The position numbers and the translations under genes were made by a program. A DNA stretch of 34,814 nucleotides from the UHGV virus genome UHGV-0076394, one strand, 5' to 3'. The stretch is from a virus. The notes below the pieces were generated by a model. That model saw nothing but the letters and a program-made list of their open reading frames with translations. It was not told the DNA's origin and did no database searches. This document shows, piece by piece, positions 1 through 22,569 of the stretch. Numbering within the stretch: the stretch's first letter is position 1; each line of letters opens with the position of its first letter.

Positions 1-10
1 TTAGCAAGGT

Positions 11-28
11 TGTGTACATTTGTACACA
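11..28. promoter_or_regulatory. Palindromic candidate operator TGTGTACA-tt-TGTACACA upstream of the TetR-family gene
   Basis: Perfect 8-bp inverted repeat with 2-bp spacer, about 22-39 nt upstream of the likely ATG at 50; TetR regulators commonly autoregulate through such dyads. Confidence 0.4.
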
Positions 29-49
29 ATTGCAGAGAGAGGAAATGAC

Positions 50-586
50 ATGCGTCGCGCTAACGATCCGCAACGGCGAGAAAAAATTATCCAGGCCACG
101 CTGGAGGCGGTGAAACTTTACGGAATACATGCTGTTACGCACCGCAAAATTGCTACCCTTGCCGGGGTACCGTTGGGATCGATGACCTACTATTTTTCAG
201 GAATTGATGAGTTGTTACTGGAGGCGTTCAGCAGTTTTACTGAGATCATGTCCCGGCAATATCAGGCATTTTTTAGCGATGTTAGTGATGCTCCGGGCGC
301 ATGCCAGGCTATCACCGATATGATCTACAGCTCACAGGTTGCAACGCCGGATAACATGGAGCTGATGTACCAGCTCTACGCGCTGGCTAGCCGAAAACCG
401 CTATTAAAAACGGTAATGCAAAACTGGATGCAGCGCAGTCAGCAAACGCTCGAACAATGGTTTGAACCCGGAACCGCCCGCGCGCTTGATGCGTTTATTG
501 AGGGGATGACGCTGCATTTTGTCACCGACCGTAAGCCGCTATCGCGCGAGGAGATTTTGAGGATGGTTGAGAGGGTTGCAGGGTAG
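50..586 (+). CDS. TetR/AcrR-family transcriptional regulator (host gene flanking the prophage)
   Basis: ORF 20..586; N-terminal HTH-like segment ([37 protein letters not shown]) typical of TetR family; ATG at 50 is preceded by a GAGAGGA Shine-Dalgarno, the track start at 20 is a TTG. Confidence 0.8.
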
Positions 587-690
587 TAGATAAGTTTTAG
601 ATAACAAAAAACCCATTTATGTAAACGGGTTAATGAAAACAACAAGTTAGATTAAAAACAATAAGTTAGGTTGGTGGTCAGTGGTGGTTA
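587..690. other. Candidate attL region (host-prophage junction) with short direct repeats AAGTTAG(A/G)TT
   Basis: AT-rich 100-bp spacer between the host TetR gene stop and the 3' end of int; in P2-like phages attP lies immediately 3' of int; two copies of AAGTTAGxTT at about 647-670; no tRNA-like sequence seen. Confidence 0.35.
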
Positions 691-1743
691 TTACGGGGTA
701 ATGCCAACCGCTGCCGCCACTTTGTCGCCACTTGGCAGCGTTGCCAGAGGATTGAAACGGAGCGCCGTTTCCAGATGATCCGGTGCCAGATGTGCGTAAC
801 GCATAGTCATTTTTATATCGTGGTGTCCGAGAATTTTTTGTAAGGCCAGAATGTTTCCACCCGACATCATGAAGTGCGCCGCAAACGTATGGCGCAGAAC
901 GTGTGTGAGTTGACCGCGAGGGAGCACGATAGACGTTTTTTCCATCACGGATAAAAATTGAAAATAGCAGTCTGTGAAGAAATTGAACCCATCAAGCGCC
1001 ATGATCTCTTCGTAAAGCTCTTTACTGATAGGGATGCTTCTGTTTTTCTTCCCCTTCGTTCTTACAAAGGTAATTCGGTATTTGGTCACCTGTGAACGAG
1101 TAAGATTTACGGCTTCTCGCCAGCGTGCGCCTGTGCTTAAGCATATCTTAACTACCAGTGCTAGAATTGGGTCCTGACGTTTGCAATCAGCCAGTAATTC
1201 AACAATCTGCTCATGGGTAAGCCATGCCATCTCTTTTTCTGCGATGGTGAATTTTCGCATGTTCTCCAGTGGGTTCGGATACGACCATTCGCCCAGACGG
1301 GATAGTTCGCTAAAAACACTACTTAGATAGCTTTGCTCCAGGTTAATGGTGACCGGGCTTGCTCCTTTCTTCCATTTCTCGCTGAAGTAGATCTCGCCTG
1401 TCAGGCGTTTATCTCGATAGTGGGCAAACATTTTAGAGGTGAGATCGGTTGCAAGAGGATTGCCCAGAGCGTCAACCATCAGCAGCAATTTGTCATAGAC
1501 ATGCTGCCCAGCAGTCAGAGATTTACCATGTAGTTTGAACCATAGCTCAACCACGTCTTTCAGGGTTCGACGATCCACTGATTCGCCCAGCCATGGCTTT
1601 GATTCGGTTTCTTCCATAGTGTGACGCTCAAAAGCCAGAGCTTCGCCTTTGGTGGCGAATTGTTTACGCACACGACGCCCACTTCGTCCGGCGGGGTAAC
1701 ATTCGCAAAGCCATTTCCCTGTGGTGAGTTTTCGTACTGCCAT
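691..1743 (-). CDS. int: Tyrosine site-specific integrase (P2/186 type)
   Basis: ORF 691..1899 minus; C-terminal catalytic region with ARWREA, HVLRHTFA and MRYAHL motifs; start set to the internal ATG at 1743 (MAVRKLTTGKW...) which has a GGAGGG Shine-Dalgarno 8 nt upstream. Confidence 0.9.
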   Translation of the reverse strand: MAVRKLTTGKWLCECYPAGRSGRRVRKQFATKGEALAFERHTMEETESKPWLGESVDRRTLKDVVELWFKLHGKSLTAGQHVYDKLLLMVDALGNPLATDLTSKMFAHYRDKRLTGEIYFSEKWKKGASPVTINLEQSYLSSVFSELSRLGEWSYPNPLENMRKFTIAEKEMAWLTHEQIVELLADCKRQDPILALVVKICLSTGARWREAVNLTRSQVTKYRITFVRTKGKKNRSIPISKELYEEIMALDGFNFFTDCYFQFLSVMEKTSIVLPRGQLTHVLRHTFAAHFMMSGGNILALQKILGHHDIKMTMRYAHLAPDHLETALRFNPLATLPSGDKVAAAVGITP

Positions 1744-1931
1744 AAAAAATGCCCTCCAGTAGAGAGCATTTTTACTGTATGTATAACCAGTGTCAATGTA
1801 TGAAATCCTACGACCATACATCTCACTGAAGCCATAATGAAGTTGGCTATTCTTTTTGCTATGTGAGCATGTAACTTTTGCGGTTAACCTGCGGCTCATT
1901 TTTATTTTAGACGCAGATATAAAAGCAAAAG

Positions 1932-2123
1932 TTATCGTGAGTTTTTAGTACAGATTTTTTTGGATTTACTAATAGTTCCATCATTGCAAACGAATTTGCC
2001 ATCTGAGGTACAGTGAGAAACACCTCCCTTTTTCCCTGAGCAGGGATAATTTCTAGCATAGGTAGTTAGTGGGTTTAATAACAAAGAACATGACAAAACC
2101 ACAAAAAATACCTTACCAAGCAT
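1932..2123 (-). CDS. Small secreted cysteine-rich protein (63 aa) with N-terminal signal peptide; candidate lysogenic-conversion cargo
   Basis: Strong Shine-Dalgarno (GGGAGGAAA) before the ATG; hydrophobic signal-like N-terminus [23 protein letters not shown]; mature part has four Cys; AT-rich; sits between cI and int on the same strand. Confidence 0.5.
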
Positions 2124-2138
2124 AGTTTCCTCCCGGTA

Positions 2139-2714
2139 CTATTTAACATACTTGACTGTTAAACTTATAATTTTACCAATTATTTCAATGTCTTCTATCT
2201 TACATTCGAAGGCTCTGTTTCCACCCTCGACGAAGATTCTTCCACCGGGTAAACGAGTAATGTCACGGATCGTTACTTCGCCATCAATACTTATTACCCA
2301 TTTACCATCACGTATATCATCAAATTCTTTATCACAAATAAATTCAGAATTGTTATCTGTGATGACAAAAGGTTTTTTAAACGTAGAGGGTAGAAATCCC
2401 TTATCAAAAATATAAAAACCGTCTTCACGCAAGGCACCATCAGATAATACATATTTAGCAACTTCCATAGTATTTGTATTACCTGAAGTTTGCTTTGAAC
2501 CATGTCCGGTTGTGAGCCAATTAAGCGAGGTGCCCGTTTCAAGGGCGCACTGGATTACCCATTCTGCTGGGAATGAGTCACGCATGTAGCGTGTGGCGAG
2601 TGTACTTTTAGAGATTCCTAAATGATCGCACAACGCCTGTCGAGTTTTGAATCCATAAGCTTCTACCATGCGCTCTATAGCGCCTCGTCCGCCTTTCTCC
2701 AAATTCATGGTCAC
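2139..2714 (-). CDS. cI: CI-like immunity repressor (186 type)
   Basis: 191 aa; N-terminal HTH-like region (AYGFKTRQALCDHLGISKSTLATRY... CALETGTSLNWLTTG); position and orientation match phage 186 cI relative to int and apl. Confidence 0.75.
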   Translation of the reverse strand: MTMNLEKGGRGAIERMVEAYGFKTRQALCDHLGISKSTLATRYMRDSFPAEWVIQCALETGTSLNWLTTGHGSKQTSGNTNTMEVAKYVLSDGALREDGFYIFDKGFLPSTFKKPFVITDNNSEFICDKEFDDIRDGKWVISIDGEVTIRDITRLPGGRIFVEGGNRAFECKIEDIEIIGKIISLTVKYVK

Positions 2715-2833
2715 TCCAAGTGAACTTTTATCTTGACGATTTCATTGTGCGATCGTATGTTTATGGTGTTCACAAAATACAAACGATCCGTATTCGTCCT
2801 GATTAATCATCATTAAACGAGGAATGTTGCATC
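2715..2833. promoter_or_regulatory. Divergent early promoter/operator region between cI and apl (pR/pL-like switch region)
   Basis: 119-bp intergenic region between divergent cI and apl/cox genes; contains TTGACG and A/T-rich -10-like hexamers and repeated ACGAT-containing elements; by analogy to the 186/P2 lysis-lysogeny switch. Confidence 0.5.
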
Positions 2834-3055
2834 ATGAGACCTAACATTTCAATCACTCTTACCACGCCTCATGTGACTATTGAGCGCTATAGCGAGCTGA
2901 CAGGGCTGTCCATCGATACCATCAATGACATGTTGGCTGACGGACGCCTTATCCGTCACCGTTTGCGCAAAGATAAAAAACGCGAAAAAGTGATGATCAA
3001 CATAGCAGCCATGACCGTTGATGCGCTTTCAGAATGCAATCTAAACCTTAATTAG
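2834..3055 (+). CDS. Apl/Cox-like small DNA-binding excisionase and switch regulator
   Basis: 73-aa basic protein encoded first in the rightward early operon, divergent from cI; the slot occupied by apl in 186 and cox in P2. Confidence 0.6.
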
Positions 3056-3087
3056 TTCGATTCTGAAATACATCAGAGGCATTGACC

Positions 3088-3597
3088 ATGTTTGATTACC
3101 AAGTTTCCAAACATCCACATTTTGATGAAGCCTGTCGTGCATTTGCACTGCGCCACAATCTGGTGCAACTGGCAGAACGTGCAGGCATGAATGTGCAGAT
3201 TCTGCGGAACAAGCTGAACCCAGCTCAGCCTCATCTATTAACCGCACCAGAAATCTGGCTGCTTACCGATCTGACTGAAGATTCAACGCTGGTAGATGGT
3301 TTTCTGGCACAGATTCATTGTCTGCCATGTGTACCGATTAATGAGGTGGCAAAAGAGAAACTGCCACATTACGTCATGAGTGCAACCGCAGAGATCGGGC
3401 GTGTTGCTGCAGGTGCGGTATCTGGCGATGTAAAAACCAGTGCAGGTCGTCGTGATGCTATCAGCAGCATTAACTCTGTAACACGACTGATGGCGTTGGC
3501 TGCTGTTTCATTGCAGGCCCGTTTACAGGCTAACCCTGCGATGGCGAGTGCAGTTGATACCGTGACCGGCCTCGGTGCTTCATTCGGTTTGCTGTGA
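3088..3597 (+). CDS. cII: CII-like lysogeny establishment regulator (186 CII type)
   Basis: ATG at 3088 with AGAGG Shine-Dalgarno; 169 aa; position after apl; recalled similarity to 186 CII ([19 protein letters not shown]... [23 protein letters not shown]). Confidence 0.7.
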
Positions 3598-9123: not shown

Positions 9124-10242
9124 ATGTATCTTTTCAAGTATTACCGTCCGGACTTCTTCTTCGAGAAAGCTATTCGTTATAATGAATTATATTTTTCCGC
9201 TCCTGCGCAATTGAATGATCCCAATGATCTCAATATAGATTATCGCTTCGATAATAAATTGAAATTATGGGATATTTTATTGCGTTCTCCTTGCGATAAA
9301 TCCTATAAAAATTTGAGTCACATATTGGATTTGAGTAATTTGAAAATACATAAGGGATTGAATCGTATTTTTAGAGGAAAAAAAATAAAAAGTAGCATTG
9401 AGTCATTAGATAGCCTGTTTGACTCACACGTTGATGAGATACGTAAGATCATAGATGATGGTTTACTACCTATCAATGTGATTAATTCTGCTATTTATGG
9501 AAATATTCCTGAACCACGCCAATATTTGGTTTCACTTTGCGAGAACAGTATCAAAGAAAGGTTGTATAGGAAAATAGTTCCTGCAGTATTCAGTGTGTCA
9601 TTTTCAGCTAATGCGTTAGATCGTATGATGTGGGCGCATTATGCTGCTGGCTTTAGTGGTTGTGTTGTGATTTATGAAACGCAGGATTTTAATATTGATG
9701 GTATACCCTATACTGGAATGAAGCTAAGAGAAAATTTATTTTCATCAGATAAATTTAATTTTCCAGTTAAGCCAATAAAATATAGTAATCAGGCTAAAGA
9801 GGTTTCACTTCTAGACCCAAGCGCAAATGTTGCAGAGTTATTTTTAACTAAAAATAGATTTTGGAGATATGAAGCTGAATATCGAATGTTTATTCCGGAG
9901 GCAAATGCAGGAATAGGGAGTGAGCGGCATGTTCAAAGACGCGTAAATCGAAATATTGGACATATTTTTCATCATGATGCTAATGTTGTTAAAGGGATCA
10001 TTTTTGGTCCTAGAATGTGTGAAATGAAAAAAGAAAGCATATGGAATTGTATCAAGTCAAATATGGAGAATTCAAATTCAACAATATGTTATTTTTTTGA
10101 CTCTGAGTTATCAGCATCAGGAAAGATTACTATTTCAAAAGGGCAACGAGCGGAAAAAATGAAAAATTTCACTTTGTTCAGGAACAAGTTAAGTCAGACG
10201 GAAATGGCTAAAGTTTTGAAGGAAATTGGCATTACGAACTAA
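9124..10242 (+). CDS. DUF2971-like protein (372 aa), AT-rich accessory gene
   Basis: N-terminus MYLFKYYR...NELYFSAPAQLNDPNDL and internal MWAHYA / FWRYEAEYR motifs as recalled for DUF2971; strongly AT-rich compared with flanking phage genes. Confidence 0.6.
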   Translation: MYLFKYYRPDFFFEKAIRYNELYFSAPAQLNDPNDLNIDYRFDNKLKLWDILLRSPCDKSYKNLSHILDLSNLKIHKGLNRIFRGKKIKSSIESLDSLFDSHVDEIRKIIDDGLLPINVINSAIYGNIPEPRQYLVSLCENSIKERLYRKIVPAVFSVSFSANALDRMMWAHYAAGFSGCVVIYETQDFNIDGIPYTGMKLRENLFSSDKFNFPVKPIKYSNQAKEVSLLDPSANVAELFLTKNRFWRYEAEYRMFIPEANAGIGSERHVQRRVNRNIGHIFHHDANVVKGIIFGPRMCEMKKESIWNCIKSNMENSNSTICYFFDSELSASGKITISKGQRAEKMKNFTLFRNKLSQTEMAKVLKEIGITN

Positions 10243-10472: not shown

Positions 10473-12212
10473 ATGGAATTGCACGCATATACTAGAACCA
10501 TATCAGAATTACTTTCTGTTAATAGAAAATATGTTGTTCCAAGATTTCAACGCGAATATTCTTGGGTAAAAGAACAAATTAATGAGCTTTGGTACGATGT
10601 AATATCTAATATAAAATTAGAGAGTGATTTCACATATTCTAATAATGAGTATTTTATTGGTTCTTTAGTTTTGGTTGGAGATGAAACAGGAAGGGAGATG
10701 CAAATAGTTGATGGTCAGCAACGACTTACAACTCTTACAATTTTTCTTTCCGTTTTATGCGAGGCGTTCAAATCAAACAATCAATCAGATTTAGCGTCTG
10801 CCCTATTTGAAAATTATATTGAAGGTCGTGATGATGATGGTAAGAAATTCTTTAAATTAATAAATGAAACGCCTAAACCTTTTTTTCAGAAAAATATCCA
10901 GCATATTAATAAGGCAGATGACATCCCACAGACACAAGAAGAGCGAAATCTCTTGTCAGCATATAAAGAAATTACATCGTTAGCCTCAAAGGAAAAGTTG
11001 GAAAAATATTTTTCAGTAGAAATTAATACTGAGGATAATTATTCCAGTGTATTAAAGGCAATTAGGGATCAGATTTTAAGATTCCTAAAGATAATTTTCA
11101 TTACTGTTAATGAAGAGGACGAGGCGTATACAATATTTGAAACATTAAATGCTAGAGGGATGAATTTAAGTTTTGTAGATTTAATCAAAAATAAATTATT
11201 TAAAGCGTTAAATGACCCACATCCAAATGATGATGCAAAAGATAATTGGAAGGCTATACGTACTACTTTAATGCAAAGAAATGGTGTAGGGACTTTTGAG
11301 AATTACATGAGGCACTGGTGGGTGTCGAAGTATGCTTATGTGAGCAATGAAAATCTTTATAAATCCTTTATTGGCAAATGGCGTAAGGGGGAAATTAATC
11401 CGGCAACCTTTATTGACGAATTGAAACAGGATGCCGAATTGTATGTACGCTTGTCATCTCCTTTGGAGAGTGATTATCCACAAATGGAAGACAAACAGTT
11501 ATTTCATTCGTTGAATGCAATTAGGCTATTTGGTATAACACAGTGTAGACCTTTTTTATTAGCCTTACTAAAGGCGAAGCAGCAAAAGAGATTACGTCAA
11601 TGTGATCTTTTAAAAGCAGTTAAATATATTGAAAATTTTCATTTTGTATTTAATGCGGTATGTTCATTAAGACCGTCAGGGATAGAAGGAGCATATTCTA
11701 AGGCCGCAAGATCTATAAATTCACCAAATGCTACAAAAGCAACTAATGGAACAACAATTGACCAGTTATGTATGTTGTTGAGTAATCGCAAGCCGGAAAT
11801 TTCTGTATTTACTGAACATTTTAGGGATATATTGTTTACTGATGACAACTCCAAACAAAAAAGATTAGTTCAATATATTATAAATAAATTTGAAATGGCC
11901 CGTCATAATGGAGATGAGTATCGTCCTAATTCTATCTCTTTAGAACATGTAATGCCTCAAAGTGCTGGCGACGATAAGGAAATAGGAATGGTTGGAAATA
12001 TAATCCCCCTGTCAAAAGAACTTAATGAGCAAGCTGGTGATAAATCATTGGCACAAAAGCTTTCTATCTATTCTCAATCGGAGTTTAGATTGACAGAAGA
12101 GTTTGTTAGTGAACTTGAAACCATTTACCATAATGAATGGAATCTCCAGTCTATTATTCAGAAGACGGATAGGATGGCTGGTGAGGCTTATATGATTATT
12201 TGGAGTCATTAA
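10473..12212 (+). CDS. DUF262/DUF1524 two-domain nuclease (GmrSD-like type IV restriction family)
   Basis: N-terminal DUF262 signatures VPRFQREYSW and DGQQRLTTL; C-terminal DUF1524-like His-Me segment SLEHVMPQS...GNIIPLSKELN; AT-rich. Confidence 0.75.
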   Translation: MELHAYTRTISELLSVNRKYVVPRFQREYSWVKEQINELWYDVISNIKLESDFTYSNNEYFIGSLVLVGDETGREMQIVDGQQRLTTLTIFLSVLCEAFKSNNQSDLASALFENYIEGRDDDGKKFFKLINETPKPFFQKNIQHINKADDIPQTQEERNLLSAYKEITSLASKEKLEKYFSVEINTEDNYSSVLKAIRDQILRFLKIIFITVNEEDEAYTIFETLNARGMNLSFVDLIKNKLFKALNDPHPNDDAKDNWKAIRTTLMQRNGVGTFENYMRHWWVSKYAYVSNENLYKSFIGKWRKGEINPATFIDELKQDAELYVRLSSPLESDYPQMEDKQLFHSLNAIRLFGITQCRPFLLALLKAKQQKRLRQCDLLKAVKYIENFHFVFNAVCSLRPSGIEGAYSKAARSINSPNATKATNGTTIDQLCMLLSNRKPEISVFTEHFRDILFTDDNSKQKRLVQYIINKFEMARHNGDEYRPNSISLEHVMPQSAGDDKEIGMVGNIIPLSKELNEQAGDKSLAQKLSIYSQSEFRLTEEFVSELETIYHNEWNLQSIIQKTDRMAGEAYMIIWSH

Positions 12213-21028: not shown

Positions 21029-21895
21029 TTACTTTTTACTGATAAATGGATTCCTATCAATCCATGAGTCCCAGTTTATATAATTGTCATCAAATCCTAT
21101 GAATTTCATTAGTACAAGTGGCACCAGTAAATTCAAATTTGATGAGTAATCTTGAATTTCAATTTTGCCATCTGAGTTTTTTTCATCAAGATAGGCAATG
21201 TATTTACCATTGTGGAACAGCGAGTGACGGAGTTTGCAGTAATGCATAATGTTTCTTTGAGCTAATGTATGTCCTGTTTTTTCGACATTAAAACCATATT
21301 CTTTTAAAACCTGAGTGATTATTTGTGGTGTTTTGGCAGGGGAGTAGTCATTTTTAATAAATCTGCAAAGTGCTTCTAGTGCCGAGAATAATAAATAATA
21401 TCTGACGTCGATATAATTTATTGAGTCGCGGAAAGCTAGCATTGATTTAAAAAATGATGTTCTAAAGGCATCTTGTTTTAGCATGGCTTTACTATTTAGT
21501 TTTTCCATGGCTAAGCAAATAAAATTTTCTCGGCTGTTTGGTGCAAAATAATCTTCCATGATGATAATGCCCGCACCCTTATCTCTTTTTTTGTCAAGCT
21601 TTTTGGGTAGAGATGGTTTGAAATTGAAAGGGGTTTCATCATTTTCAAGTTCTCCTGAAATGATTACATTTTTTTGTTCAATAAAACTAAGAACTGCTTG
21701 TAAATCAAAAATAAGCTGCTGTTGAGTGGCGTAGTTATTCGAGTTTGGTTTGAAAAAACCAGTGAGGATGTACCTATCATTAGCCCAGCCATTTTTTTTT
21801 AACTCACTCCATGAACTGAAAATAGGAGTTAACTCACCACCGTCAAATGTGATTTTTTTAGTGAAATTAAATCCATAAATTGCGATTTGTGTCAT
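21029..21895 (-). CDS. AT-rich accessory protein (289 aa) with R-x4-H motif; candidate HEPN/Abi-like defence protein
   Basis: Minus-strand gene inserted between S and V; ATG at 21895 preferred over 21943; contains CKLRHSLFHNG (R-x4-H); markedly AT-rich. Confidence 0.55.
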   Translation of the reverse strand: MTQIAIYGFNFTKKITFDGGELTPIFSSWSELKKNGWANDRYILTGFFKPNSNNYATQQQLIFDLQAVLSFIEQKNVIISGELENDETPFNFKPSLPKKLDKKRDKGAGIIIMEDYFAPNSRENFICLAMEKLNSKAMLKQDAFRTSFFKSMLAFRDSINYIDVRYYLLFSALEALCRFIKNDYSPAKTPQIITQVLKEYGFNVEKTGHTLAQRNIMHYCKLRHSLFHNGKYIAYLDEKNSDGKIEIQDYSSNLNLLVPLVLMKFIGFDDNYINWDSWIDRNPFISKK

Positions 21896-21924
21896 CTTAA
21901 ATACCTTAGAAATTGTTTCTCTTT

Positions 21925-21942
21925 TGTATGGTTCTCCATACA
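21925..21942. promoter_or_regulatory. TGT-N12-ACA dyad (TGTATGG-ttct-CCATACA), candidate late promoter pV activator site
   Basis: Perfect 7-bp inverted repeat conforming to TGT-N12-ACA about 50-65 nt upstream of the V start codon, in the short region shared with the divergent cargo gene. Confidence 0.45.
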
Positions 21943-21990
21943 TACGCTCTGTATTACATCACTCTACCCGGTTGTGCAAGGATCGCTCTC

Positions 21991-22569
21991 ATGAACGCAC
22001 AATTAACCGAAATCATGCGCCTTATCACCAACCTGATCCGCACTGGGGTAGTCACCGAAGTGGACCGGGAAAACTGGCTTTGCCGGGTGAAAACGGGCGA
22101 CCTTGAAACCAACTGGATCAGCTGGCTGACGCTGCGTGCCGGGAATGCCCGCACATGGTGGCGACCATCGGAAGGTGAGCAGGTAGTGCTGCTGAGTCTG
22201 GGCGGCAATCTGGAGACTGCCTTTGCGCTGCCCGCTGTCTATTCGAATCAGTTCGCACCACCGTCGAAGTCGGCGGACGCCTGCGTGACAGAACATCCTG
22301 ACGGTGGCTGGTTTGAATACGAACCCGCCACCGGGCGCTGGTATGTCAGGGGCATCAAATCAATGGTCATTGAGGCCGCTGACAACATCACCATGAAAAC
22401 CAGTGAGTTTGTACTGGAGGCTGACCGCACGCGTATTAACAGCGAAGTAGTGATCAATGGTGGCGTTACCCAGGGCGGCGGTGCGATGAGTTCTAACGGA
22501 ATTGTGGTTGATGCACATCAGCATACTGGCGTCCTGAAAGGCGGCGACACAACCGGAGGCCCGGTATGA
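21991..22569 (+). CDS. V: Baseplate spike / assembly protein (P2 gpV family)
   Basis: Start at ATG 21991 (MNAQLTEIMRLITNLIRTG...); ...WLTLRAGNARTWWRPSEGEQV...SNG..H.H match recalled gpV features. Confidence 0.85.
   Translation: MNAQLTEIMRLITNLIRTGVVTEVDRENWLCRVKTGDLETNWISWLTLRAGNARTWWRPSEGEQVVLLSLGGNLETAFALPAVYSNQFAPPSKSADACVTEHPDGGWFEYEPATGRWYVRGIKSMVIEAADNITMKTSEFVLEADRTRINSEVVINGGVTQGGGAMSSNGIVVDAHQHTGVLKGGDTTGGPV

What the first reader, a model, noticed from the sequence alone, without database searches (positions are those of the whole stretch)
1932..2123. Small secreted cysteine-rich protein encoded between int and cI (lysogen-expressed moron candidate)
A 63-aa ORF with a strong Shine-Dalgarno, a typical signal peptide and a four-cysteine mature region lies 15 bp downstream of cI on the same strand, so it is probably co-transcribed with the repressor in the lysogen. 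The region is AT-rich. P2 has no gene here. A lysogen-expressed exported mini-protein could be a conversion factor or an exclusion protein acting at the envelope.
Basis: partly seen in the sequence, partly recalled or inferred. Interest (0 to 1): 0.45.

Follow-up and report, generated by a model that had tools for sequence, protein, structure and literature searches.

The report
Prophage YdcA-family exported mini-protein gene
The 63-codon ORF is a real, strongly conserved gene for a small exported four-cysteine protein of the already catalogued but functionally unknown YdcA family, sitting just behind the repressor gene of a 186-like E. coli prophage, so the lysogen probably makes it continuously.

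Summary
Window 1932..2123 (-) is a 63-aa ORF with a GGAGG Shine-Dalgarno. It starts 15 nt after the cI stop and ends 188 nt before int, in AT-rich DNA.

It is not an orphan. It passes the NCBIfam cutoff for a YdcA-type model, is Pfam PF27300 'YdcA' and PHROG 6000, and RefSeq calls it 'YdcA family protein'. About 12% of complete E. coli genomes carry it, always as cI-ydcA-int.

The 40-residue mature part is under strong purifying selection. The signal peptide evolves freely.

The arrangement cI -> ydcA -> (extra cargo) -> int recurs in Yersinia, Buttiauxella and Haemophilus prophages. In phage HP2 the gene is unannotated and its ATG overlaps the cI stop. P2 and 186 have no gene at this position.

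Longer family members fuse the domain to secreted nucleases of three unrelated folds.

Function is untested. My best guess is a periplasmic binding module that interferes with incoming DNA (exclusion). Stress tolerance is the main rival.

Known gene family, ordinary kind of locus, open function: moderate interest.

The parts
1932..2123 (-). CDS of the 63-aa YdcA-family protein (stop codon TAA at 1932..1934)
   Evidence: ORF list. NCBIfam NF007463 scores 115.8 bits against a cutoff of 93. PHROG 6000. Precomputed PF27300 'YdcA'. RefSeq WP_000900883.1 'YdcA family protein'.
2055..2123 (-). Codons 1-23: predicted Sec signal peptide ([23 protein letters not shown]), cleavage predicted after Ala23
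   Evidence: Hydropathy and the -3/-1 rule, worked out by hand. Ala at -1 is conserved across the family. This segment evolves fast, with pN 0.45-0.68 between divergent alleles. Prediction only.
1935..2054 (-). Codons 24-63: mature 40-aa basic peptide with four invariant Cys ([40 protein letters not shown])
   Evidence: Invariant columns P27 C28 S29 K32 G33 G34 C38 F44 C46 G49 S52 C58 in 86 sequences. Between divergent alleles pN is 0.04-0.29 while pS is 0.67-0.94. AF2 model has mean pLDDT about 80.
2129..2133 (-). Shine-Dalgarno GGAGG, 5 nt upstream of the ATG
   Evidence: Sequence. Conserved in the other E. coli alleles L108 and L109.
2139..2714 (-). cI repressor gene (186 type), immediately upstream in the same transcription direction
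   Evidence: PF07022 + PF16452. 32% identical to 186 CI. RefSeq 'phage repressor protein CI'.
1744..1931 (-). 188-nt spacer between ydcA and int. It has no '-' strand terminator-like site. It contains a promoter-like TTGACA-17-AAAAAT at 1796..1768.
   Evidence: Promoter and terminator scan. The promoter-like count in the region (4) is not above the shuffle expectation (5.3), so that site may be chance.
691..1743 (-). P2/186-type integrase gene, last gene of the presumed lysogenic operon, next to the prophage end beside rcdA
   Evidence: PF24624 + PF00589. RefSeq annotation. In 186 the pL transcript covers cI and int according to that record's annotation.
2715..2833 (.). cI-apl/cox intergenic switch region, presumed site of the lytic and lysogenic promoters that would drive cI-ydcA-int
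   Evidence: By analogy with the annotated pR/pL of 186, HP2 and K139. A '+' strand TTGACG-17-TATGTT lies at 2733..2761. The lysogenic promoter itself was not located: inference.

Best explanation
The ORF is a genuine protein-coding gene of the YdcA family (Pfam PF27300, NCBIfam NF007463). It is a long-standing resident of the lysogeny module of a 186-like E. coli prophage.

Proposed sequence of events:
1. In the lysogen the gene is transcribed with cI and int from the lysogenic promoter (inferred).
2. It is translated from its own strong Shine-Dalgarno.
3. The protein is exported by Sec and cleaved after Ala23 (predicted).
4. It is oxidised to a roughly 4.3-kDa, strongly basic, two-disulfide knot in the periplasm (inferred).

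The domain is a compact extracytoplasmic binding module. A related two-lobed version, Dis2, sits under the outer membrane on lipoproteins of a type IV secretion machine. The same domain is fused to secreted nucleases of three unrelated folds.

The most likely role for the free prophage-made peptide is to act at the periplasmic face of the envelope on the route taken by incoming DNA. It would bind either the DNA or an outer-membrane-proximal component, and so give the lysogen exclusion of superinfecting phage or other foreign DNA.

My estimates for the individual steps: gene and family identity about 0.95; export about 0.85; co-expression with cI about 0.75; exclusion or DNA-entry function about 0.35.
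For: Identity:
- NF007463 scores above its curated cutoff.
- PHROG 6000.
- PF27300 'YdcA' is precomputed for this exact protein.
- PGAP names it a YdcA family protein.

Coding and constraint:
- 11 synonymous against 1 conservative change versus the 93.8%-identity allele.
- Between divergent cI-linked alleles the mature region has pN 0.04-0.29 with pS 0.67-0.94. The signal peptide has pN 0.45-0.68.

Export:
- Canonical n/h/c regions with conserved Ala at -1.
- One source names a relative 'Periplasmic protein'.

Lysogenic expression:
- 15-nt gap after cI and no '-' strand terminator before int.
- In HP2 the ATG overlaps the cI stop (TAATG) downstream of the annotated pL.
- 186 and K139 annotate cI..int as one lysogenic operon.

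Recurrence of cI-ydcA-(cargo)-int:
- E. coli.
- Yersinia, Buttiauxella and Pasteurellaceae.
- Haemophilus.

Binding-module reading:
- Dis2 (PDB 7MUC/7MUD chain AN) is the best PDB sequence hit, at E 3e-5 for the single sequence and 2.2e-5 for the profile.
- Dis2 is also the top Foldseek hit for both AF2 models, with probability 0.96-0.98 and 38-39% identity.
- A Dis2 orthologue fragment carries PF27300.
- Dis2 lies near the outer membrane and contacts DotK, DotC and DotD (PMC8486379; PMC12716638).

DNA link:
- 6 of 20 long family members scanned with Pfam are signal peptide + YdcA domain + nuclease. The nuclease is SNase, Endonuclease_NS or PLDc_2.
- A seventh such fusion, to Endonuclease_NS, is on record for P0097.
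- SNase-like genes flank ydcA in 4 alphaproteobacterial loci.

Exclusion precedent and slot:
- K139 Glo is a 'periplasmic protein; involved in phage exclusion' lying between cI and int.
- Sister prophages carry PD-Lambda-1 or a PDC-S20 KAP NTPase in the same slot.
Against: - No experiment or omics data here shows transcription, translation, export or any phenotype.
- The signal peptide was judged by hand, not with a trained predictor.
- YdcA matches no PADLOC model.
- It is not homologous to Glo.
- Most family members are chromosomal or in unrelated contexts: about 70 of 80 species loci have no cI or int nearby. The family's core function therefore cannot be phage-specific.
- In Moraxella phages the gene sits among morphogenesis genes.
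- Dis2 contacts proteins away from the translocation channel, and its loss has only subtle effects.
- The nuclease fusions could mean tethering to the envelope rather than DNA binding.
- The only phenotype reported for E. coli ydcA concerns acid and 3-hydroxypropionate stress (PMC7642389).
Confidence: 0.45

Rival explanations
1. Lysogenic conversion for host fitness rather than defence. The prophage supplies an extra copy of a periplasmic stress-tolerance factor, acting like the chromosomal YdcA under acid or organic-acid envelope stress.
For: - Chromosomal E. coli ydcA is reported as YdcI-controlled and induced at pH 5. Its deletion made E. coli W sensitive to 300 mM 3-hydroxypropionate (PMC7642389).
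- The family is mostly chromosomal and spread over alpha-, beta- and gammaproteobacteria.
- The mature sequence is extremely conserved, which suggests a universal envelope target.
Against: - The cited phenotype is a single growth assay with no mechanism, and it was overridden by yieP deletion.
- This reading does not explain the repeated fusion to nucleases, the Dis2 relationship, or the carriage on phages and small mobilisable plasmids.
Confidence: 0.2
2. The protein serves the phage's own cycle rather than the lysogen. For example, it could prepare or mark the envelope for induction, release, adsorption or DNA delivery.
For: - In Moraxella Mcat phages the homologue lies among tail and morphogenesis genes.
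- In Acinetobacter phages it also lies outside a recognisable cI-int module.
Against: - In the window and in HP2, Yersinia and Buttiauxella relatives it follows cI on the lysogenic strand.
- 186 and P2 are fully functional without it.
- It persists in a defective prophage that has lost packaging and head genes.
Confidence: 0.1
3. It is a disulfide-knotted protease inhibitor, or an antimicrobial or metal-binding peptide.
For: - Weak, non-significant similarity to potato type II proteinase inhibitors (E 0.24-1.8).
- One third-party annotation of a relative reads 'serine proteinase ... inhibitor'.
- Sub-threshold hits of some members to the TerY_C metal-binding domain, best E 0.003.
- Basic charge and a conserved His37.
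Against: - None of these matches reaches significance or a curated cutoff.
- There is no adjacent immunity, export or protease gene.
- A Sec signal alone would leave the peptide in the periplasm of the producer.
Confidence: 0.07
4. It is a chance or decaying ORF with no product.
For: It is short and AT-rich. Older RefSeq annotations call it only 'hypothetical protein'.
Against: - It scores above the curated family cutoff.
- 2167 database clusters match the family profile.
- The substitution pattern shows strong purifying selection.
- The Shine-Dalgarno is conserved.
- The reading frame is intact in 628 of 5426 complete E. coli genomes.
Confidence: 0.01

Closest known systems
YdcA family (Pfam PF27300; NCBIfam NF007462/NF007463, PRK10040; E. 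coli K-12 YdcA)
   Same: - Same domain, length class and signal peptide.
- Same four invariant Cys and the [12 protein letters not shown]...F.C.DG..S.SK..C motif.
- It passes the curated NF007463 cutoff.
   Different: - About 57% identical to the chromosomal E. coli copy beside cybB.
- It is carried in a prophage lysogeny module instead of the chromosome backbone.
- The family has no established function, so membership names it without explaining it.
[quoted passage not shown]
   Same: - Only solved relative: sequence E 3e-5 and 2.2e-5.
- Top Foldseek hit for both models.
- Shared motif C-S-K-x-G-G-[IV]-x-x-C ... G-[KR]-[FL]-V-C-N-[DN]-G.
- Also a signal-peptide-bearing, disulfide-pinned small protein.
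- A Dis2 orthologue fragment carries PF27300.
   Different: - Dis2 has two such lobes and five disulfides, and is a stoichiometric part of a secretion machine.
- The window protein is a single lobe with four Cys, in a prophage with no T4SS genes.
- Papers describe Dis2 as Legionellales-specific with no structural relatives, so the link to YdcA seems not to have been discussed in print.
Glo of Vibrio phage K139 (P2/HP1-related)
   Same: Same position: between cI and int in the PL lysogenic operon. It is annotated as a periplasmic protein involved in phage exclusion. The slot is described as an antiviral hotspot in K139-like phages (PMC9122126).
   Different: There is no sequence similarity (BLASTP E 0.16). 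Glo is 137 aa. The resemblance is positional and functional by analogy only.
Small envelope-acting superinfection-exclusion proteins of phages (e.g. [quoted passage not shown]
   Same: A small phage-encoded protein targeted beyond the cytoplasmic membrane and acting at the outer membrane's inner face (abstracts listed).
   Different: - Llp is a lipoprotein, whereas the window protein has no credible lipobox. Cys12 lies too early, position -2 is Leu, and most homologues have no Cys in the signal peptide.
- No receptor partner is known.
- No homology was tested or claimed.

Membership tests
YdcA family (PF27300 / NCBIfam NF007463) | Profile HMM score above the curated cutoff | tested here: met
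   NF007463 scores 115.8 bits against a cutoff of 93, covering profile positions 1-58 of 58. PF27300 is precomputed for the identical protein. That model is not in the local Pfam copy.
YdcA family (PF27300 / NCBIfam NF007463) | Four conserved cysteines and the [12 protein letters not shown] / F-x-C-x-D-G-x-x-S-x-S-K-x-x-C core | tested here: met
   All invariant columns of the 86-sequence alignment are present in the window protein.
YdcA family (PF27300 / NCBIfam NF007463) | N-terminal cleavable signal peptide followed by a single domain of about 35-40 aa | tested here: met
   The n/h/c regions and the conserved Ala at -1 were judged by hand. No trained predictor was available, so this is met at the sequence-anatomy level only.
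Dis2 (Dot/Icm T4SS outer-membrane-cap subunit) | Sequence and fold similarity to a Dis2 lobe | tested here: met
   phmmer E 3e-5. Profile E 2.2e-5. Foldseek probability 0.96-0.98 and TMq up to 0.65. hhalign against a truncated orthologue gives probability 61% and E 7.9e-5.
Dis2 (Dot/Icm T4SS outer-membrane-cap subunit) | Two tandem lobes pinned by five disulfides | tested here: not met
   The window protein has one lobe and four mature-region Cys. The Dis2 description is in PMC8486379.
Dis2 (Dot/Icm T4SS outer-membrane-cap subunit) | Part of a type IVB secretion machine (partners DotK, DotC, DotD) | tested here: not met
   The window is a P2/186-like prophage beside rcdA with no T4SS genes.
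Lysogeny-operon periplasmic exclusion proteins (K139 Glo type) | Encoded between repressor and integrase on the lysogenic strand | tested here: met
   Window order is cI-ydcA-int. K139 order is cI-orf2-glo-int.
Lysogeny-operon periplasmic exclusion proteins (K139 Glo type) | Sequence homology to Glo | tested here: not met
   BLASTP E 0.16, with 7 of 30 identities.
Lysogeny-operon periplasmic exclusion proteins (K139 Glo type) | Reduces superinfection when expressed | not testable with these tools
   This needs plating and adsorption assays with deletion and expression constructs.
Catalogued anti-phage defence proteins (PADLOC-DB 2.0) | Match to a defence-system model | tested here: not met
   0 families at E <= 1e-3 for the window protein. 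Neighbouring-slot cargo in relatives does match: PDC-S20 and PD-Lambda-1.
Bacterial lipoproteins (Llp/Cor-type exclusion lipoproteins) | Lipobox [LVI][ASTVI][GAS]C at the end of the signal peptide | tested here: not met
   The residues are V-L-S-C12, with Leu at -2 and only 7 hydrophobic residues before the Cys. Cys12 is absent from the Yersinia, Haemophilus and most other homologues.
DUF3761 (PF12587), considered as a possible circular permutation of the motif | Profile match | tested here: not met
   Only 1 of 86 family members matches, at E 0.75. The idea came from memory and is dropped.
Disulfide-rich protease inhibitors (potato type II / Kazal) | Significant sequence match to an inhibitor domain | tested here: not met
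   Best E 0.24-1.8 against PDB inhibitor chains.

The most novel reading that the evidence does not exclude
The YdcA domain would be a previously unrecognised extracytoplasmic module that targets DNA, or the outer-membrane-proximal machinery DNA passes through. That would explain three things: its recruitment into a type IV secretion system (Dis2), its fusion to three unrelated families of secreted nucleases, and its stand-alone carriage by phages and plasmids. Temperate P2/186/HP-like phages would then express the free domain from the repressor operon as a minimal 40-residue periplasmic barrier to incoming phage, conjugative or transforming DNA.
Probability: 0.2. Interest if true: 0.65.

Novelty: already known. 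Interest (0 to 1): 0.38.

Why it matters
About one complete E. coli genome in eight carries this gene directly behind a prophage repressor, including relatives in strains C, BL21 and ATCC 8739. Haemophilus, Yersinia and other prophages keep a homologue in the same place.

Despite that, no function is known for the family, and I found no paper that discusses the prophage copies.

If the peptide blocks DNA entry, it would be one of the smallest exclusion factors known. It would also give a handle on the unexplained Dot/Icm subunit Dis2 and on the N-terminal domains of many secreted nucleases.

If it instead improves stress tolerance, it is a very common lysogenic-conversion gene.

Either outcome can be tested with simple genetics in standard strains.

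Tried and rejected
- **Local Pfam copy.** No significant hit for the ORF, because PF27300 is newer than the copy. The family was identified through NCBIfam, PHROGs and precomputed Pfam instead.
- **DUF3761 circular-permutation idea (from memory).** Not supported.
- **Homology to K139 Glo.** None.
- **PADLOC.** No model matches YdcA.
- **Rfam on 1..3200.** Only a sub-threshold CRISPR-repeat match at 735-758, so there is no RNA explanation for the region.
- **Lipoprotein reading.** Rejected on lipobox grounds.
- **Terminator between ydcA and int.** Only a '+' strand hairpin at 1878-1894 that relies on G-T pairs, so it would not form in the '-' strand transcript.
- **Guilt by association in 80 species loci.** Neighbours are heterogeneous. 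Apart from cI/int, cybB and SNase-like genes, no conserved partner emerged. ORF calling there was crude.
- **Isolated phages.** No Escherichia phage genome in the collection carries the gene. The E. coli evidence comes from prophages only.
- **IMG/VR scan.** It returned only near-identical copies and added nothing on diversity.
- **Search with a Dis2 fragment.** Only two truncated orthologues were found, so the profile-profile test is weak.
- **'Conjugal transfer protein' name in UniRef**. I could not trace its basis and treated it as unverified.

Full report
**1. What is in the sequence.**

On the minus strand, window 1932..2123 is an ATG-initiated 63-codon ORF ending in TAA. GGAGG lies at 2129..2133, 5 nt before the ATG. 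The stop codon of the upstream ORF (2139..2714) is 15 nt away.

The upstream ORF is a 186-type CI repressor (PF07022 + PF16452). The downstream ORF (691..1743) is a P2/186-type integrase (PF24624 + PF00589). On the other strand follow an Apl/Cox-position ORF and a CII (PF06892).

The window is a P2/186-like prophage inserted beside rcdA in E. coli.

GC content is 0.345-0.35 over 1801-2200, lower than most of the neighbourhood.

Phage P2 has only a 115-bp gap between C and int. In phage 186, cI and int abut.

**2. It is a real gene of a known family.**

- The product passes the curated cutoff of NCBIfam NF007463 (PRK10040.1-2): 115.8 bits against 93.
- It matches PHROG 6000, function unknown, at E 1.9e-34.
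- It carries the precomputed Pfam family PF27300, named 'YdcA'.
- RefSeq annotates the identical protein, WP_000900883.1, as 'YdcA family protein'.
- The local Pfam copy predates PF27300, so it gave no hit.

A profile search finds 2167 90%-identity clusters. An exhaustive HMMER pass finds 467 50%-identity clusters. They span alpha-, beta- and gammaproteobacteria on chromosomes, plasmids and phages.

The alignment shows a variable signal peptide ending in a conserved Ala. A nearly invariant core follows: [12 protein letters not shown]-x(3,4)-F-x-C-x-DG-x-x-S-x-SK-x-x-C.

**3. Selection.**

648 of 5426 complete E. coli genomes carry the ORF, 628 of them at 80% or more of its length. Against the commonest other allele (93.8% nucleotide identity), 12 codons differ: 11 are synonymous and one is R24K.

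Eight cI-linked alleles from E. coli, Buttiauxella, Yersinia and Pasteurellaceae were compared by the Nei-Gojobori method. Outside the closely related allele pairs:

| Segment | pN | pS |
|---|---|---|
| Mature part | 0.04-0.29 | 0.67-0.94 (saturated) |
| Signal peptide | 0.45-0.68 | not summarised |

This is the pattern expected of an exported protein whose mature part has a specific function. A chance ORF is excluded.

**4. Export (predicted).**

The N-terminus has one Lys, a 12-residue hydrophobic core, Pro18 and T-Y-A before Arg24. It has no twin-arginine motif and no credible lipobox.

The mature peptide would be 40 residues and about 4.3 kDa, with pI 9.7 and four Cys.

I had no signal-peptide predictor, so this is anatomy plus family behaviour, not a test.

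**5. Expression context.**

No terminator-like site lies on the minus strand between cI and int. The hairpin at 1878-1894 is specific to the plus strand.

In the annotated relatives 186 and K139, the repressor-to-integrase stretch is one lysogenic operon.

In Haemophilus phage HP2 (and S2), tblastn uncovered an unannotated 60-aa homologue. Its ATG overlaps the cI stop (TAATG), downstream of the annotated pL. A 254-aa ORF and int follow it.

Co-transcription with cI in the lysogen is thus the natural reading, but it remains inferred.

**6. The slot and its history.**

The exact protein always appears as cI-ydcA-int.

A 69%-identical allele sits in cI-ydcA-KAP NTPase-int. That NTPase matches the candidate defence family PDC-S20.

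Other relatives fill the slot without ydcA:
- vB_EcoM-813R9 carries a PD-Lambda-1 protein.
- Klebsiella phage 4LV2017 carries a 349-aa unknown protein.

Published surveys describe repressor-integrase or integrase-primase intervals of P2-related phages as minor defence hotspots (PMC9122126; bioRxiv 10.64898/2026.02.27.708500).

Comparing the window with the KAP-carrying relative:
- int is 98% identical.
- The first 60 or so residues of CI are identical.
- The CI C-terminal domain is only about 58% identical.
- ydcA is saturated at synonymous sites.

So ydcA is an old companion of the cI C-terminal half, not a fresh insertion.

Among 80 species-representative loci, a cI gene lies directly upstream in about seven. 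This is the largest recurrent context, level with the Escherichia chromosomal cybB-ydcA pair. All other neighbourhoods are heterogeneous.

**7. Structural relative.**

Searching PDB sequences gives one significant hit: chain AN of 7MUC/7MUD. [quoted passage not shown] The E-value is 3e-5 with the single sequence and 2.2e-5 with the profile, and a second, weaker match falls on the second lobe.

A truncated Dis2 orthologue in the protein collection carries PF27300. hhalign gives probability 61% and E 7.9e-5.

According to the papers:
- Dis2 has two similar lobes with five disulfides and lies near the outer membrane.
- It touches DotK, DotC and DotD.
- It is called specific to Legionellales.
- It is dispensable for assembly, with subtle effects on translocation (PMC8486379; PMC12716638).

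The window protein corresponds to a single lobe. It probably shares ancestry and fold with Dis2, but it is not a Dis2 orthologue.

**8. Domain fusions.**

Some family members have two or three tandem domains (sequences).

I scanned 20 longer members with Pfam. Six have the layout signal peptide + YdcA domain + linker + nuclease, drawn from three unrelated folds:
- SNase: P0162, P0289.
- Endonuclease_NS: P0216, P0286, P0268.
- PLD-like: P0231.

A seventh such fusion, P0097 to Endonuclease_NS, is on record in the precomputed Pfam annotation.

No other enzymatic domain recurred. SNase-like genes also flank ydcA in four alphaproteobacterial loci.

Independent fusion to three nuclease folds argues that the domain either binds nucleic acid or places its partner where DNA is met outside the cytoplasm. 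The peptide's basic charge fits DNA binding. The position of Dis2 fits localisation.

**9. Most likely mechanism and rivals.**

Shown: gene, family, constraint, position, structural relative, fusions.

Inferred: export, disulfides, co-expression with cI.

Proposed (about 0.35): the free periplasmic peptide interferes with entry of foreign DNA, giving exclusion. Three things support this: the slot's defence character, the positional analogue Glo of K139 (periplasmic, phage exclusion, not homologous), and the nuclease and secretion-system connections.

Main rival (about 0.2): an envelope stress-tolerance factor like the chromosomal copy. That copy is reported as induced at pH 5, and its deletion sensitises E. 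coli W to 3-hydroxypropionate (PMC7642389).

Minor rivals:
- A role in the phage's own cycle, since Moraxella phages place the gene among tail genes.
- A protease inhibitor, or an antimicrobial or metal-binding peptide. Only sub-threshold similarities support this.

**10. Novelty and verdict.**

The gene and its family are catalogued, and this kind of locus is known, so I rate it 'already known'. The function is open.

A full-text search for the family name or the protein accessions found only incidental mentions. I found no discussion of the prophage copies, of the unannotated HP2 gene, of the YdcA-Dis2 relationship or of the nuclease fusions.

Interest is moderate.

Noticed in passing
[not shown]
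   Followed up: yes
window 9124-10242 (+) and 10473-12212 (+): Two cargo genes lie between the replication gene (GpA homologue) and the portal gene, the classic P2 defence hotspot. A 372-aa protein matches PADLOC candidate PDC-S31 (DUF2971 in RefSeq). A 579-aa protein matches HEC-06/Orf5 and SspE N-terminal models.
   Followed up: partly
window 2143-2171 (+): A near-consensus sigma-70-like site, TTAACA-17-TATAAT (11 of 12), lies on the plus strand at the very 3' end of cI, just past its stop codon. It points antisense into cI. It may be chance in AT-rich DNA.
   Followed up: no
window 2139-2714 (-) compared with L016:3414-3977: CI is mosaic. The N-terminal DNA-binding part (about 60 residues) is identical between the two prophage types, while the C-terminal domain is only about 58% identical. 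int is 98% identical. The exchanged block is therefore the cI C-terminal half plus ydcA (plus cargo).
   Followed up: partly
L016:4198-5529; L006:3591-5267; L007:3567-4616: Sister prophages carry other genes in the cI-int slot: a KAP-family NTPase (PADLOC PDC-S20, PifA-like), a PD-Lambda-1 protein (in vB_EcoM-813R9, annotated there as 'chromosome segregation ATPase'), and an unassigned 349-aa protein in Klebsiella phage 4LV2017.
   Followed up: partly
P0162, P0289, P0216, P0286, P0268, P0231, P0097 (family members): Secreted nucleases of three unrelated folds (SNase, Endonuclease_NS, PLD-like) carry an N-terminal YdcA domain. Other members have two or three tandem YdcA domains (P0153, P0154, P0155).
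   Followed up: partly
L110 (Acinetobacter pittii plasmid pApiMCR53a, 3916 bp), 728-904: A 3.9-kb MOBQ mobilisable plasmid with only five genes carries a YdcA-like gene next to a traD-like gene. Many Acinetobacter and Rhizobium plasmids also encode family members.
   Followed up: no
L107 (E. coli TW14425), 21533-22530: In this strain the same prophage is defective: baseplate V and the terminase large subunit are truncated and joined. The cI-ydcA-int module is still intact and 100% identical over window 1700-2800.
   Followed up: no
L112 (record NZ_CP148400.1, labelled as a 55-kb E. coli plasmid): This 'plasmid' record contains the prophage module together with the chromosomal genes rcdA, ybjJ and ybjI. 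That suggests an assembly or labelling artefact, or an excised chromosomal segment.
   Followed up: no
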